This document shows, in pieces, positions 24,257-33,697 of a stretch of 64,000 nucleotides of DNA. A program made the position numbers and the translations under genes. The first letter of the stretch is position 1. Each line of letters begins with the position of its first letter. The stretch lies in the NCBI RefSeq assembly GCF_002854065.1, contig NZ_CP024147.1; one strand, written 5' to 3'. Below the pieces are notes generated by a model. That model was given only the letters and a program-made list of their open reading frames with translations, did not search any database and was not told where the DNA came from. Source of the DNA: Escherichia coli (lineage in GTDB: Bacteria > Pseudomonadota > Gammaproteobacteria > Enterobacterales > Enterobacteriaceae).

Positions 24257-24751
24257 TTAATTTGCGATTAACTGTTCGTTTATTTTGTCGATAATATTGA
24301 TTGAGGGATCTGACGCTACGACGCGTAAATCCAATATGACGCCAAGATTATTTAACTCATGAAATGCGTTAATATCATCATCATCTAATGAAACCGCTTT
24401 GGTTAACTGTTTTTTACCGGGCCGCCAGGCCATGCCGCCAATATTCAGGGTGCCTATTTTTACCCCCTGGCGAACCATCGCTAAGGCATCCTGTGGGCGA
24501 GTGAAAAGATAAAAAACGGTTTCGTCCTGATATTGCGGGTTGTGATAAACCGCGATGGCTTTTTCAATATTGACCACGTTAACCTTCATTCCCGGTGGCG
24601 CAGCCTGACGCAATAATGTCCGGCGAACTTCATCGTTATAAACTTCGTCATTGCAGATAATAATGCGCTGGGCGTTAGCCACTTTCGACCAGACGGTAGT
24701 GACCTGACCGTGGATCAGGCGGTCATCAATGCGGGCGAGCGTAATGTTCAT
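24257..24751 (-). CDS. sorB: PTS mannose/sorbose-family EIIB component
   Basis: 164 aa, MNITLARIDDRLIHGQV (EIIB-Man signature); ATGA overlap with sorF. Confidence 0.87.
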   Translation of the reverse strand: MNITLARIDDRLIHGQVTTVWSKVANAQRIIICNDEVYNDEVRRTLLRQAAPPGMKVNVVNIEKAIAVYHNPQYQDETVFYLFTRPQDALAMVRQGVKIGTLNIGGMAWRPGKKQLTKAVSLDDDDINAFHELNNLGVILDLRVVASDPSINIIDKINEQLIAN

Positions 24752-27338: not shown

Positions 27339-28211
27339 ATGCTGCCCGACTCATCAGTCCGTTTAAATAAATACATCAGCGAAAGCGGAATTTGCTCACG
27401 CCGCGAAGCGGATCGCTATATCGAGCAAGGCAATGTGTTCCTTAATGGCAAGCGAGCCACCATTGGCGATCAGGTGAAACCCGGCGACGTTGTGAAAGTA
27501 AACGGTCAGTTGATTGAACCTCGGGAAGCCGAAGATTTGGTACTTATCGCCCTGAACAAGCCCGTCGGTATTGTCAGCACCACCGAAGATGGCGAGCGCG
27601 ATAACATTGTCGATTTTGTTAACCACAGCAAACGCGTGTTCCCGATTGGCCGCCTGGATAAAGACTCCCAGGGGCTGATTTTCCTCACCAATCACGGCGA
27701 TCTGGTGAATAAGATCCTCCGTGCGGGTAACGATCATGAGAAAGAGTATCTGGTGACGGTCGATAAACCGATTACCGATGAATTTATTCGTGGTATGGGG
27801 GCGGGGGTGCCGATCCTCGGGACGGTGACTAAAAAGTGCAAAGTCAAAAAAGAAGCGCCGTTTGTCTTCCGCATTACCCTGGTGCAGGGGCTGAACCGTC
27901 AGATCCGGCGCATGTGCGAGCATTTCGGCTATGAAGTGAAAAAGCTGGAACGTACGCGCATTATGAACGTCAGCTTAAGCGGCATTCCGCTGGGAGAATG
28001 GCGCGATTTAACCGACGACGAGCTTATCGATCTCTTTAAGCTCATTGAAAATTCCTCTTCCGAGGCGAAGCCCAAAGCGAAGGCCAAACCGAAAACAGCG
28101 GGCATCAAACGTCCAGTCGTTAAGATGGAAAAAACGGCGGAAAAAGGCGGTCGCCCGGCGTCCAACGGTAAGCGTTTTACCTCGCCGGGGCGTAAAAAGA
28201 AGGGGCGCTAA
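27339..28211 (+). CDS. rluF: 23S rRNA pseudouridine synthase RluF
   Basis: 290 aa; S4 domain plus RsuA-type catalytic domain; basic Lys/Ala-rich C-terminal tail. Confidence 0.93.
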
Positions 28212-28484
28212 TCAGCGCCTGCCGCGCGTCGACGTATTTGCTGACCAGCTAAATGACGCTTCAGGATCCGGTTTATAAGCCTGCTTTTTCTTCAATTGGC
28301 GGGCTTTTTTTGCTTCAGCCTCACGCTCAACCATTAATTTATCGATGTAATCTTTCTTAATGCTGTTGGTTTCGGAGTTGGTCAGTACGCGACCATGCGC
28401 AATCCGCGCCCGATCCAGCAGTGTTTTAAGTTCACGCTGCTCGCGTTCAGTCATCTCTTTTTGGGTAATACGGGGGAGTGCCAT
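28212..28484 (-). CDS. yjbD: Small conserved protein YjbD
   Basis: 90 aa, MALPRITQKEMTEREQRELKTLLDRARIAHG... Confidence 0.85.
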   Translation of the reverse strand: MALPRITQKEMTEREQRELKTLLDRARIAHGRVLTNSETNSIKKDYIDKLMVEREAEAKKARQLKKKQAYKPDPEASFSWSANTSTRGRR

Positions 28485-28582
28485 GATGGTGCCCTCAGTG
28501 AGCCAGAGAGTTCAGTGTACGGGAATTCGTTTGCGAGCAGAACTGATAATATTCCTTTGTTCTCTTCGGTAATGACTCCAAC

Positions 28583-29086
28583 TTATTGATAGTGTTTTAT
28601 GTTCAGATAATGCCCGATGACTTTGTCATGCAGCTCCACCGATTTTGAGAACGACAGCGACTTCCGTCCCAGCCGTGCCAGGTGCTGCCTCAGATTCAGG
28701 TTATGCCGCTCAATTCGCTGCGTATATCGCTTGCTGATTACGTGCAGCTTTCCCTTCAGGCGGGATTCATACAGCGGCCAGCCATCCGTCATCCATATCA
28801 CCACGTCAAAGGGTGACAGCAGGCTCATAAGACGCCCCAGCGTCGCCATAGTGCGTTCACCGAATACGTGCGCAACAACCGTCTTCCGGAGCCTGTCATA
28901 CGCGTAAAACAGCCAGCGCTGGCGCGATTTAGCCCCGACGTATCCCCACTGTTCGTCCATTTCCGCGCAGACGATGACGTCACTGCCCGGCTGTATGCGC
29001 GAGGTTACCGACTGCGGCCTGAGTTTTTTAAATGGCGGAAAATCGTGTTGAGGCCAACGCCCATAATGCGGGCGGTTGCCCGGCAT
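28583..29086 (-). CDS. insB: IS1 InsB (transposase C-terminal part, expressed as InsAB' by -1 frameshift)
   Basis: 167 aa ORF matching IS1 InsB. Confidence 0.9.
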
Positions 29087-29280
29087 CCAACGCCATTCAT
29101 GGCCATATCAATGATTTTCTGGTGCGTACCGGGTTGAGAAGCGGTGTAAGTGAACTGCAGTTGCCATGTTTTACGGCAGTGAGAGCAGAGATAGCGCTGA
29201 TGTCCGGCAGTGCTTTTGCCGTTACGCACCACCCCGTCAGTAGCTGAACAGGAGGGACAGCTGATAGAAACAGAAGCCAC
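29005..29280 (-). CDS. insA: IS1 InsA (transposition repressor / transposase N-terminus)
   Basis: 91 aa, [40 protein letters not shown]... Confidence 0.9.
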
Positions 29281-29330
29281 TGGAGCACCTCAAAAACACC
29301 ATCATACACTAAATCAGTAAGTTGGCAGCA

Positions 29331-30029
29331 TCACCCGTTGGTGCTTTCCCAGCTTAATGCCGCTGAGGTGGTTTTTATCATGACTTCTGTTCGGTAGCCT
29401 GCATCTTTGAGTTTTTTTAATGTTTGTAGCGGCGTAGCGGCATTACGAAATGTTCCTTCGACAACAATATTGAGTTTATTGGCTATGGCCCTCTCTATTG
29501 CACGTTCGACCGTTTCGCCGGAAAATTTTGCCGTATGGGTAACAAAATCGTCGCCATAAGTTTGATATATATAATTAAAATCAGGGTGTAGAAATCTGAA
29601 ATCATCACCATTAATAATCATTATATTATTCTTTGTTTCCCTTTTTGCTAATTCGATTAGGGCGGATTTTCCGGCTCCTGGTTGTCCACCTAAAACAAAA
29701 CCAATGGGACTCTGCTGGGATGTGACGTCATGGTTTGTCAGACGCTGCCAAATAGAATCAAAAGACGCTTTATTTTCTGAATGCGCAGTATTATTAAATT
29801 CACGCTGATACTTTTTTCTGACCTGCTGGAGGCGTAACTTTTCCTGTGTAAAATCAACAAGTTCTGCTTGAGTGGAATAAAGATTGTCGCGATAGCTGAC
29901 TAATTGTGATAGCTCATCGTCTGAGTCCTGAACTTGTGAGGAAAAACAACTGTCGACGATATTTGATAAAAACGCGATGCACTGACTGGCGCCGTTTAAA
30001 AGTGCATCCTTTTCCATTAAAGTAGCCAT
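29331..30029 (-). CDS. Zeta-toxin-like P-loop kinase domain protein, reading frame runs into the IS1 end (probably C-terminally truncated)
   Basis: ORF 29331..30035 with likely ATG at 30029 preceded by AGGAG; Walker A GGQPGAGKS, then INGDDFR and VEGTFR motifs; AT-rich; stop codon lies inside IS1 terminal repeat. Confidence 0.55.
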   Translation of the reverse strand: MATLMEKDALLNGASQCIAFLSNIVDSCFSSQVQDSDDELSQLVSYRDNLYSTQAELVDFTQEKLRLQQVRKKYQREFNNTAHSENKASFDSIWQRLTNHDVTSQQSPIGFVLGGQPGAGKSALIELAKRETKNNIMIINGDDFRFLHPDFNYIYQTYGDDFVTHTAKFSGETVERAIERAIANKLNIVVEGTFRNAATPLQTLKKLKDAGYRTEVMIKTTSAALSWESTNG

Positions 30030-30173
30030 TAACACTCCTGTTAAATGATATTTTTCGGTGATTGTAATACTGTTCTACAGGAGTGATTTTGCTTTTCAGA
30101 TATTATTTAATCTATGTTTTCAGTGAGGATGGCGTATAACAATTGGTGAGCGTTATACGCCAGTAGGGAAATA

Positions 30174-31830: not shown

Positions 31831-32047
31831 TTTATAAATAAAGGGTGAGCGGGGCGGTTGTCAACGACGGGGTCATGCGGATTTTTCATCCACTCCTGGC
31901 GGTCAGTAGTTCAGCTAATAAATGCTTCACTGCGCTAAGGGTTTACACTCAACATTACGCTAACGGCACTAAAACCATCACATTTTTCTGTGACTGGCGC
32001 TACAATCTTCCAAAGTCACAATTCTCAAAATCAGAAGAGTATTGCTA

Positions 32048-33697
32048 ATGAAAAACATCAATCCAACGCAGACCGCTGCCTGGCAGGCACTACAGAAACA
32101 CTTCGATGAAATGAAAGACGTTACGATCGCCGATCTTTTTGCTAAAGATGGCGATCGTTTTTCTAAGTTCTCCGCAACCTTCGACGATCAGATGCTGGTG
32201 GATTACTCCAAAAACCGCATCACTGAAGAGACGCTGGCGAAATTACAAGATCTGGCGAAAGAGTGCGATCTGGCGGGCGCGATTAAGTCGATGTTCTCTG
32301 GCGAGAAGATCAACCGCACTGAAAACCGCGCCGTGCTGCACGTAGCGCTGCGTAATCGTAGCAATACCCCGATTCTGGTTGATGGCAAAGATGTTATGCC
32401 AGAAGTCAACGCGGTGCTGGAGAAGATGAAAACCTTCTCGGAAGCGATTATCTCCGGTGAGTGGAAGGGTTATACCGGCAAAGCAATCACCGACGTGGTG
32501 AACATCGGGATCGGCGGTTCTGACCTCGGCCCATACATGGTGACCGAAGCACTGCGTCCGTACAAAAATCACCTGAACATGCACTTTGTTTCTAACGTCG
32601 ATGGGACTCACATCGCTGAAGTGCTGAAAAAAGTAAACCCGGAAACCACGCTGTTCCTGGTAGCATCTAAAACCTTCACCACTCAGGAAACCATGACCAA
32701 CGCCCATAGCGCGCGTGACTGGTTCCTGAAAGCGGCAGGTGATGAAAAACACGTTGCGAAACACTTTGCGGCGCTCTCCACCAATGCCAAAGCCGTTGGC
32801 GAGTTTGGTATTGATACTGCCAACATGTTCGAGTTCTGGGACTGGGTCGGCGGTCGTTACTCTTTGTGGTCAGCGATTGGCCTGTCGATTGTTCTCTCCA
32901 TCGGCTTTGATAACTTCGTTGAACTGCTTTCTGGCGCACACGCGATGGACAAGCATTTCTCCACCACGCCTGCCGAGAAAAACCTGCCTGTACTGCTGGC
33001 GCTGATTGGCATCTGGTACAACAATTTCTTTGGTGCGGAAACTGAAGCGATTCTGCCGTATGACCAGTATATGCACCGTTTCGCGGCGTACTTCCAGCAG
33101 GGCAATATGGAGTCCAACGGTAAGTATGTTGACCGTAACGGTAACGTTGTGGATTACCAGACTGGCCCGATTATCTGGGGTGAACCAGGCACTAACGGTC
33201 AGCACGCGTTCTACCAGCTGATCCACCAGGGAACCAAAATGGTACCGTGCGATTTCATCGCCCCAGCTATCACCCATAACCCGCTCTCTGATCACCACCA
33301 GAAACTGCTGTCTAACTTCTTCGCCCAGACCGAAGCGCTGGCGTTTGGTAAATCCCGCGAAGTGGTTGAGCAGGAATATCGCGATCAGGGTAAAGATCCG
33401 GCAACGCTTGACTACGTGGTGCCGTTCAAAGTGTTCGAAGGTAACCGCCCGACCAACTCCATCCTGCTGCGTGAAATCACTCCGTTCAGCCTGGGTGCGT
33501 TGATTGCGCTGTATGAGCACAAAATCTTTACTCAGGGCGTGATCCTGAACATCTTCACCTTCGACCAGTGGGGCGTGGAACTGGGTAAACAGCTGGCGAA
33601 CCGTATTCTGCCAGAGCTGAAAGATGATAAAGAAATCAGCAGCCACGATAGCTCGACCAATGGTCTGATTAACCGCTATAAAGCGTGGCGCGGTTAA
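32048..33697 (+). CDS. pgi: Glucose-6-phosphate isomerase
   Basis: ORF 32042..33697; known start [19 protein letters not shown]; 549 aa. Confidence 0.95.

What the first reader, a model, noticed from the sequence alone, without database searches (positions are those of the whole stretch)
29331..30029. Orphan zeta-toxin-like P-loop kinase with an N-terminal extension, apparently cut by IS1
The protein has a Walker A motif GGQPGAGKS about 115 residues in, then INGDDFR and VEGTFR. This arrangement matches zeta/PezT-type UNAG kinases (Pfam Zeta_toxin) as I remember them; it is a family assignment from motifs, not a measured hit. Its reading frame runs 5 nt into the IS1 terminal repeat, where the stop codon sits, so the C-terminal part of the kinase domain is probably missing. 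There is no small upstream ORF that could be an epsilon-type antitoxin; only ~140 bp of intergenic DNA separates it from lysC. The ~110-aa N-terminal region is not a classic short zeta toxin. A good AGGAG RBS precedes the ATG. This could be a remnant of a toxin-antitoxin or defence-type module.
Basis: partly seen in the sequence, partly recalled or inferred. Interest (0 to 1): 0.65.

Follow-up and report, generated by a model that had tools for sequence, protein, structure and literature searches.

The report
IS1-truncated ezeT toxin-antitoxin pseudogene
This is the broken remnant of ezeT, an already characterised E. coli gene whose single protein carries a cell-wall-poisoning kinase and its own antidote; an IS1 insertion with a 2.6-kb deletion removed its tail, so it is an ordinary pseudogene.

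Summary
A minus-strand ORF (30029 to 29331) encodes 232 aa with Walker A GGQPGAGKS (114-122), INGDDFR (139-145) and VEGTFR (190-195). It matches Pfam Zeta_toxin (2.8e-32) and NCBIfam PezT (4e-28). Its TGA lies 5 nt inside the IS1 terminal repeat.

It is not a new orphan kinase. It is an allele of ezeT: same site beside lysC, 88% aa identity to EzeT WP_000212693.1. EzeT is the published single-chain toxin-antitoxin in which residues 1-82 act as a cis antitoxin and the rest is a UDP-GlcNAc kinase. That accounts for the N-terminal extension and the lack of an epsilon gene.

Intact alleles are 308-309 aa and occur in about 1431 of 5426 complete E. coli genomes. Here IS1 (28568-29335) follows codon 231, and 2,638 bp are missing: the last 78 codons, an RlaP nucleotidyltransferase gene and a slipin gene. 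There is no target-site duplication. The near-identical strain CUWW06 has the same IS1 and the same right junction but lost only 217 bp, which points to nested IS1-adjacent deletions.

The truncation removes invariant R233 and R245 (zeta R158 and R171), so the product is most likely inactive. Already known; low interest.

The parts
29331..30029 (-). Truncated ezeT ORF. It has 231 native codons, then one hybrid Gly codon (GGG, 2 nt from IS1), then a TGA inside the IS1 terminal repeat. It is a pseudogene remnant of a 309-codon gene.
   Evidence: Residues 1-231 are identical to the 309-aa XJ34 allele and 88% identical to EzeT WP_000212693.1. Pfam Zeta_toxin 2.8e-32.
29784..30029 (-). Codons 1-82: the N-terminal cis-acting antitoxin domain of EzeT, intact here. 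The model of the full-length allele predicts three helices (4-27, 32-51, 60-78).
   Evidence: The boundary comes from the literature (EzeT(1-82) and EzeT deltaN83; PMC4803016). The AF2 model is. Free-standing 82-aa ORFs upstream of related kinases are 53% identical.
29337..29783 (-). Codons 83-231: the linker plus the N-terminal two thirds of the zeta-type UDP-GlcNAc kinase domain. It keeps K121, D142, E191 and G192-T193-F194-R195. It lacks R233, R245, D253, N262 and the last two helices and two strands.
29664..29690 (-). Walker A / P-loop GGQPGAGKS (codons 114-122; K121 corresponds to zeta K46).
   Evidence: Sequence translated. Alignment to 1gvn and 2p5t. Invariant in 66 homologues.
29595..29615 (-). 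INGDDFR (codons 139-145). D142 corresponds to zeta D67 / PezT D66, the residue that deprotonates the substrate.
   Evidence: The role of D67 is taken from PMC6362051.
29445..29462 (-). VEGTFR (codons 190-195). It contains E191 (zeta E116) and the GTxR UDP-GlcNAc-binding motif.
   Evidence: The motif's role is taken from PMC6362051.
30030..30173 (-). The lysC-ezeT intergenic region (144 bp) holding the ezeT ribosome-binding site AGGAG at 30039-30035. It is intact and identical to strains that carry a whole gene.
   Evidence: 100% identity over 29336-30173 to XJ34 and CUWW06.
28568..29335 (-). Complete IS1 (768 bp, IS1B type) with insA 29280-29005 and insB' 29086-28583. The insA-proximal inverted repeat abuts ezeT codon 232. 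There is no 9-bp target-site duplication.
   Evidence: It is 768/768 identical to the IS1 at the same junction in CUWW06, which is annotated as IS1B.
28567..28568 (.). Left deletion junction. DNA 83 bp beyond the yjbD coding sequence is joined directly to IS1. Relative to intact loci, 2,638 bp are missing (L003 3363-6000): 445 bp of intergenic DNA, the slipin gene, the RlaP nucleotidyltransferase gene, the 32-bp RlaP-ezeT spacer and the last 236 bp of ezeT.

Best explanation
The feature is an IS1-truncated pseudogene of ezeT, the chromosomal single-chain zeta-type toxin-antitoxin of E. coli.

How the intact protein works (308-309 aa): residues 1-82 form a helical antitoxin domain that blocks, in cis, the C-terminal kinase. 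When the kinase is freed it phosphorylates UDP-N-acetylglucosamine with ATP. The product UNAG-3P blocks MurA, peptidoglycan synthesis fails and the cell lyses. For EzeT this toxicity was seen only below 30 C. These steps are shown in the literature for EzeT, PezT and zeta, not here.

What happened in this strain: IS1 sits after codon 231. The DNA on its other side was deleted up to a point 83 bp from yjbD. The deletion most likely arose by IS1-mediated adjacent deletion, because a sister strain has the same IS1 and junction but a shorter deletion. It removed the last 78 codons plus the neighbouring RlaP and slipin genes.

Consequence (inferred): promoter, RBS, antitoxin domain, P-loop, catalytic Asp and GTxR motif remain. 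The product lacks the two invariant arginines (R233 and R245, equivalent to zeta R158 and R171) and about a third of the kinase fold. It should therefore be non-toxic, catalytically dead and probably unstable.
For: - Family: Pfam Zeta_toxin 2.8e-32 and PezT HMM 4.3e-28. The AF2 model of the intact allele (pLDDT 90.5) superposes on zeta 1gvn_B at 1.7 A over 222 columns and on PezT 2p5t.
- Identity as ezeT: WP_000212693.1, named as EzeT in PMC10532202, is annotated at the same position between lysC and the RlaP gene in O111:H8. It is 88% identical over all 231 residues. The same review notes EzeT lies beside lysine-sensitive aspartokinase 3.
- EzeT mechanism: PMC4803016 and PMC4826407.
- Truncation: residues 1-231 equal the 309-aa XJ34 protein. 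1433 complete genomes hold the 5' part and 1431 hold the 3' part. Homologues are 297-310 aa.
- Deletion map.
- Nested deletions: the window is 99.98% colinear with CUWW06, with an identical IS1 and an identical right junction. CUWW06 lacks only 217 bp and keeps slipin and RlaP.
- Lost residues: R233, R245, D253 and N262 are invariant in 66 homologues. R233 and R245 align to zeta R158 and R171, which are assigned to catalysis/antitoxin binding and nucleotide binding (PMC6362051).
- Removing only 11 C-terminal residues already attenuates PezT (PMC3062530).
- PGAP flags the CUWW06 copy as an incomplete pseudogene.
Against: - Nothing contradicts the identification.
- Loss of activity is inferred from alignment and a model, not measured.
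- The ORF keeps its RBS and upstream region and carries no further mutations (100% identical to intact alleles over 838 bp). A truncated protein could therefore still be made and its antitoxin domain could still fold.
- Adjacent deletion versus recombination between two IS1 copies cannot be distinguished from the sequence.
- The primary EzeT paper (Rocker & Meinhart 2015) is not in the library. Its results are taken from three reviews.
Confidence: 0.93

Rival explanations
1. The ORF is a complete, naturally short zeta-like kinase whose end merely coincides with IS1.
For: The exact 232-aa product is in public databases as a called protein, named 'KAP family P-loop domain protein', and is indexed in 126 blocks of assemblies.
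Against: - Its last sense codon and its stop codon are built from IS1 bases.
- Residues 1-231 are identical to a 309-aa protein.
- 1431 of 1433 complete genomes continue for 78 more codons.
- All contigs that carry the 232-aa form have IS1 insA immediately downstream.
- The cut falls inside predicted helix 223-239.
Confidence: 0.01
2. The truncated gene is still useful. The fragment EzeT(1-231) is expressed, and its intact N-terminal antitoxin domain neutralises incoming EzeT or zeta-type kinases in trans, acting as an anti-addiction or immunity role.
For: - The RBS and upstream DNA are intact and show no decay.
- EzeT(1-82) neutralises EzeT deltaN83 in trans (PMC4803016).
- The IS1::ezeT allele persists in many isolates.
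Against: - No evidence of expression or stability.
- Persistence is explained by clonal descent: the IS1 is identical and the flanks are 100% identical to CUWW06.
- ezeT is also inactivated by frameshifts and an in-frame deletion elsewhere, the pattern expected of neutral decay.
- No close plasmid-borne EzeT homologue that would need neutralising was found in PLSDB.
Confidence: 0.04
3. ezeT is one arm of a three-gene conflict or defence island (slipin/SPFH + RlaP nucleotidyltransferase + EzeT). The finding is then the stump of that larger system rather than of a self-contained toxin-antitoxin.
For: - The three genes always lie together between yjbD and lysC in E. coli and E. fergusonii.
- The yjbD-lysC gap is a variable spot that also receives a GT4-conflict glycosyltransferase and phage genes.
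- K-12 lacks all three genes.
Against: - ezeT is convergent with slipin-RlaP and is not in one operon with them.
- EzeT alone is a functional auto-inhibited toxin in the literature.
- The 61%-identical Pseudocitrobacter orthologue has unrelated neighbours.
- XJ34 lost slipin and RlaP but keeps ezeT, while CUWW06 lost ezeT but keeps slipin and RlaP.
- There are no PADLOC hits for slipin or RlaP, and only a weak one (E about 1e-3, PDC-M04B) for EzeT.
Confidence: 0.05
4. The 2.6-kb loss arose by homologous recombination between two directly oriented IS1 copies, one in ezeT and one near yjbD. It was not an IS1-promoted adjacent deletion.
For: - A single IS1 without a target duplication is the expected product of either route.
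- The yjbD-lysC gap is hit by IS1 repeatedly: G3/10, T16R and ET650.
Against: - CUWW06 has the same right junction with a different, shorter left deletion. Under this model that would need a second independent IS1 insertion at yet another site.
- No genome with two IS1 copies flanking the island was seen.
Confidence: 0.25

Closest known systems
EzeT of Escherichia coli (Rocker & Meinhart 2015; WP_000212693.1)
   Same: Same chromosomal site downstream of lysC. 88% amino-acid identity over residues 1-231. Same architecture: an N-terminal cis antitoxin of about 82 aa fused to a zeta-type UDP-GlcNAc kinase, with no separate antitoxin gene.
   Different: It is a different allele group: about 89% nt identity; 42 complete genomes carry the window's allele type at 99% identity or more, against 1384 in the 80-90% band that includes the published type. 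It is truncated after residue 231 by IS1, so it lacks the last 78 residues including R233 and R245. It is a pseudogene, not a working module.
PezAT of Streptococcus pneumoniae and epsilon/zeta of pSM19035 (PDB 2p5t, 1gvn, 3q8x)
   Same: Same kinase fold and motifs: Walker A, the catalytic Asp, GTxR and, in the intact allele, the two arginines. The antitoxin is a small helical bundle.
   Different: In those systems toxin and antitoxin are separate proteins from a bicistronic or tricistronic operon. Here they are one chain. There is no Pfam Epsilon_antitox or HTH match in the N-terminal domain.
Two-gene EzeT-like modules (metagenomic enterobacterial contigs L017 and L020; Neisseria wadsworthii L015)
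   Same: An 82-aa ORF is 53% identical to EzeT 1-80, and the downstream kinase is 68% identical to EzeT 87-304. The Neisseria 81-aa ORF shares the MxTLMxKDAL start.
   Different: Antitoxin and kinase are separate, overlapping genes. That is the presumed pre-fusion state.
IS1-promoted adjacent deletions (classical IS1 behaviour; from my own knowledge, e.g. Reif & Saedler 1975)
   Same: One IS1 end keeps a fixed junction. The DNA at the other end is deleted to variable extents and no target duplication remains. The window shows 2,638 bp lost against 217 bp in CUWW06.
   Different: The mechanism is not demonstrated here. Recombination between two IS1 copies would give the same product.

Membership tests
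Zeta toxin / PezT UDP-GlcNAc kinase family (Pfam PF06414) | Significant match to the family profile | tested here: met
   Pfam Zeta_toxin i-E 2.8e-32, covering model positions 10-140 of 199 only. NCBIfam PezT 4.3e-28, covering positions 8-154 of 251. That score (98 bits) is below the equivalog cut-off of 470, so it is family-level membership and not PezT itself.
Zeta toxin / PezT UDP-GlcNAc kinase family (Pfam PF06414) | Walker A GxxGxGK[ST], the catalytic Asp (zeta D67) and the GTxR substrate motif | tested here: met
   G114-S122 with K121, D142, and G192-T193-F194-R195, all aligned to 1gvn and 2p5t. All except D142 (at least 90% conserved) are invariant in 66 homologues.
Zeta toxin / PezT UDP-GlcNAc kinase family (Pfam PF06414) | The conserved arginines equivalent to zeta R158 and R171, and a complete kinase fold | tested here: not met
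   R233 and R245 exist in the intact 309-aa allele, but the window's product ends at residue 231 plus one Gly. The cut falls inside helix 223-239 and removes H249-268, two strands and H295-304.
Zeta toxin / PezT UDP-GlcNAc kinase family (Pfam PF06414) | Phosphorylation of UDP-GlcNAc and toxicity on expression | not testable with these tools
   Reported for EzeT deltaN83, PezT and zeta in the literature. Predicted to be lost in this fragment.
EzeT single-chain toxin-antitoxin | Orthology to the characterised EzeT protein: same locus and high identity | tested here: met
   WP_000212693.1 is annotated between lysC and the RlaP gene. It is 88% identical over 231 aa with E 5e-157. PMC10532202 names that accession as EzeT and places it beside lysC.
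EzeT single-chain toxin-antitoxin | An N-terminal antitoxin domain of about 82 residues fused to the kinase, with no separate antitoxin gene | tested here: met
   Residues 1-82 are present and unmutated. They are predicted as three helices and are homologous to free-standing 82-aa ORFs upstream of related kinases. No upstream small ORF is present. Antitoxin activity itself was not tested here.
EzeT single-chain toxin-antitoxin | Full-length gene of 308-309 codons | tested here: not met
   Only 231 native codons remain. It is therefore filed as a pseudogene remnant of ezeT, not as a functional member.
IS1 | A 768-bp element with terminal inverted repeats and insA/insB' frames | tested here: met
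   28568-29335. The inverted repeat is an exact match. insA (91 aa) and insB' (167 aa) ORFs are present. It is identical to the annotated IS1B of CUWW06. The 9-bp target duplication is absent, consistent with a deletion event.
Known anti-phage defence systems (PADLOC-DB) | Match to a defence-system protein model | tested here: not met
   Only weak hits were found: PDC-M04B at E 5e-4 to 1e-3 over 50 residues of the P-loop region. Slipin and RlaP gave none.

The most novel reading that the evidence does not exclude
The slipin (SPFH) - RlaP nucleotidyltransferase - EzeT trio between yjbD and lysC could be one functional conflict or defence island. In that reading EzeT would be the suicide effector, and the IS1 event here disabled the whole unit. 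A weaker variant is that the surviving EzeT(1-231) fragment acts as a stand-alone antitoxin against incoming zeta-type toxins.
Probability: 0.05. Interest if true: 0.45.

Novelty: already known. Interest (0 to 1): 0.1.

Why it matters
It matters little beyond correct annotation. The ORF should be labelled 'ezeT pseudogene, truncated by IS1' rather than read as a novel orphan kinase. One public record of the identical 232-aa product calls it a 'KAP family P-loop domain protein'.

It is a tidy natural example of two things. One is IS1 generating nested deletions in a variable chromosomal spot. The other is the repeated decay of a chromosomal toxin-antitoxin gene by IS1 insertions, frameshifts and an in-frame deletion in different lineages. 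That pattern fits weak or conditional selection on ezeT.

The two-gene relatives found in passing give direct sequence support to the published idea that EzeT arose by fusion of an antitoxin gene and a toxin gene.

Tried and rejected
- PADLOC scans of the fragment, the full-length EzeT, slipin and RlaP gave no meaningful defence-system hit.
- The NCBIfam hits other than PezT (DS41_1 antiphage protein, Sll1717 ATPase and various kinases) are P-loop-only matches far below their cut-offs. I disregarded them.
- The primary EzeT paper (PMID 25943309) is not in the library, so I used reviews instead.
- A homologue search with the slipin protein was saturated by E. coli and E. fergusonii sequences at 98% identity or more. 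It gave no distant contexts, so linkage of slipin-RlaP with zeta kinases outside Escherichia remains untested.
- A tblastn search of PLSDB plasmids found no close EzeT on true plasmids. The two E. coli hits are Mb-sized records, evidently chromosomes.
- A search for the window's left junction found no complete genome with the same 2,638-bp deletion. The 9 near-full matches are unrelated IS1 insertions in the K-12-type empty site.
- The RlaP preprint does not mention slipin, SPFH or zeta toxins.
- The promoter and terminator consensus scan around the gene was no better than shuffles.
- I did not run a structure prediction of the truncated product, because it would not show whether the fragment is stable.

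Full report
**1. What is in the sequence**

The region lies in an E. coli chromosome segment. The gene order is rluF (27339-28211, +), yjbD (28212-28484, -), a 768-bp IS1 (28568-29335), the ORF in question (30029-29331, -), lysC (31523-30174, -) and pgi (32042-33697, +).

The ORF starts at ATG 30029, five nucleotides after AGGAG. It encodes 232 residues. I verified three motifs codon by codon:
- GGQPGAGKS at residues 114-122
- INGDDFR at residues 139-145
- VEGTFR at residues 190-195

The IS1 terminal repeat GGTGATGCTGCCAACTTACTGAT ends at 29335. lysC and the ORF are separated by 144 bp, and there is no small ORF upstream.

**2. Family assignment, now measured**

- Pfam gives Zeta_toxin at 2.8e-32. 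The match stops at model position 140 of 199, which is the signature of a truncated domain.
- NCBIfam gives PezT at 4.3e-28, covering positions 8-154 of 251.
- The intact allele matches PezT (2p5t, 2.6e-32) and zeta (1gvn, 1.1e-27) by sequence.
- An AlphaFold2 model of the intact allele (pLDDT 90.5, pTM 0.89) superposes on zeta 1gvn_B at 1.7 A over 222 columns and on PezT.

**3. It is ezeT**

- A megablast of 29336-30173 finds one copy in each of 1433 of 5426 complete E. coli genomes. The copy is always chromosomal and is annotated 'zeta toxin family protein'.
- In intact loci the gap between yjbD and lysC holds three genes. A slipin/SPFH gene (375 aa, Band_7) and an RlaP-family nucleotidyltransferase gene (263 aa, PF10127 at 1.4e-96) lie on one strand. 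A 308-309-aa zeta gene is convergent to them.
- In O111:H8 the zeta protein is WP_000212693.1. The 2023 PezAT review gives this accession for 'the dual TA EzeT' and notes that it lies next to lysine-sensitive aspartokinase 3 (PMC10532202).
- The window's 231 native residues are 88% identical to it without gaps.

According to reviews of Rocker & Meinhart 2015 (PMC4803016; PMC4826407), EzeT is a single-chain toxin-antitoxin:
- EzeT deltaN83 is toxic, permeabilises cells and accumulates UNAG-3P, but only below 30 C.
- Full-length EzeT is harmless.
- EzeT(1-82) neutralises the toxin domain in trans.

My model shows three N-terminal helices (4-27, 32-51, 60-78) ahead of the kinase. The domain also exists as a free-standing gene elsewhere:
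- An 82-aa ORF 53% identical to EzeT 1-80 overlaps by 11 nt the start of a kinase 68% identical to EzeT 87-304. This pair occurs in two different contexts.
- Neisseria wadsworthii has an 81-aa ORF starting MCTLMQKDAL immediately upstream of its zeta kinase.

**4. The truncation and the deletion**

- Residues 1-231 are identical to the 309-aa protein of strain XJ34, after which the window reads Gly-stop.
- Colinearity with intact loci stops at 28567 and resumes at 29336. The missing stretch is 2,638 bp (L003 3363-6000). It comprises 445 bp of intergenic DNA, the slipin gene, the RlaP gene, the short RlaP-ezeT spacer and the last 236 bp of ezeT.
- The flanks carry no 9-bp duplication.
- The window is 99.98% colinear with strain CUWW06. 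That strain has the same IS1 (768/768) and the same IS1-ezeT junction, and 3,665 bp of identical flank. It lost only 217 bp and keeps slipin and RlaP.

A fixed junction at one IS1 end with variable loss at the other is the classical picture of IS1-promoted adjacent deletion (my own knowledge). Recombination between two IS1 copies cannot be excluded.

Further context:
- Among complete genomes, only CUWW06 and ET201 lack the ezeT 3' end (1433 versus 1431).
- ET201 is an independent event. Its IS1 is in the opposite orientation, its junction is 5 bp away, and it has its own 2.6-kb deletion.
- The exact 232-aa product is already in public databases and is indexed in 126 assembly blocks, always followed by IS1 insA. 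The insertion therefore marks a lineage.

**5. Functional consequence (inferred)**

The fragment keeps K121, D142, E191 and GTFR. It loses R233, R245, D253 and N262, which are invariant in an alignment of 66 homologues.

R233 and R245 align with zeta R158 and R171. These residues are assigned to catalysis/antitoxin binding and to nucleotide binding (PMC6362051).

The cut falls inside helix 223-239 and removes two further helices and two strands. Deleting just 11 C-terminal residues already attenuates PezT (PMC3062530).

I therefore rate the product as non-toxic and catalytically dead, and the locus as a pseudogene. PGAP annotates the CUWW06 copy the same way. The fragment shows no further decay, so the event is recent.

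**6. Rivals**

- *Natural short form.* This is refuted (section 4).
- *Surviving trans-antitoxin or anti-addiction role.* This is possible in principle but unsupported. ezeT also decays by a frameshift in O145 strains, and by another frameshift and a 19-aa in-frame deletion in other isolates. That pattern looks neutral.
- *A three-gene slipin-RlaP-EzeT unit.* This is weakly supported by co-location in E. coli and E. fergusonii. It is contradicted by several points: the convergent orientation, unrelated neighbours of the 61%-identical Pseudocitrobacter orthologue, reciprocal losses in XJ34 and CUWW06, and the lack of PADLOC hits.

**7. Verdict**

The object is the already characterised ezeT gene, inactivated by an ordinary IS1 event. 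Novelty: already known. Interest: low.

Noticed in passing
L017 5763-6699; L020 3763-4804; L015 5753-6891: Two-gene relatives of EzeT. An 82-aa ORF 53% identical to EzeT 1-80 overlaps by 11 nt a kinase 68% identical to EzeT 87-304. One copy is chromosomal beside cysJIH/queD. Another lies in a plasmid leading-region-like context (ParB_N, PsiA, DUF905). Neisseria wadsworthii has a related 81-aa ORF upstream of its zeta kinase. This gives direct sequence support to the fusion origin of EzeT.
   Followed up: partly
window 28485-30173 (the yjbD-lysC gap); L008, L010, L011, L022-L024: The yjbD-lysC gap is a variable hot spot. It is empty in K-12 (about 122 bp of unrelated DNA). It holds the slipin-RlaP-ezeT island in about a quarter of E. 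coli genomes and in E. fergusonii. One E. fergusonii carries an extra GT4-conflict glycosyltransferase with a yjbD duplication. In another contig, P2-like tail genes replace the ezeT side. Strains G3/10 and T16R have simple IS1 insertions with target duplications.
   Followed up: partly
L007 4256-5022 (E. coli ET201), compared with window 29335/29336: A second, independent IS1 insertion in ezeT lies only 5 bp from the window's junction. It is in the opposite orientation, in the other allele group, and has its own deletion of about 2.6 kb. This suggests a local IS1 target hot spot around codons 231-233.
   Followed up: partly
L001 4175-4765 (E. coli XJ34); L002 5765-6693 (O145 RM9872); P0004, P0007: Other decay routes of the island. 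XJ34 has a 1,357-bp IS-free deletion that removes the slipin 3' end and RlaP while ezeT stays intact. O145 strains have a frameshifted ezeT. Public protein sets contain a frameshifted 230-aa form and a form with a 19-aa in-frame deletion between two GDDF repeats.
   Followed up: partly
window 24379-24387: This 9-bp site in the sorbose PTS IIB gene is uninterrupted in the window. In the otherwise 99.98% identical strain CUWW06 it carries another IS1B copy, so IS1 has been active recently in this lineage.
   Followed up: no
protein P0257 (the window's 232-aa product): The identical truncated protein is deposited as 'KAP family P-loop domain protein' (EZJ81348.1, KEO25289.1). That name is misleading for an IS1-truncated ezeT.
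   Followed up: no
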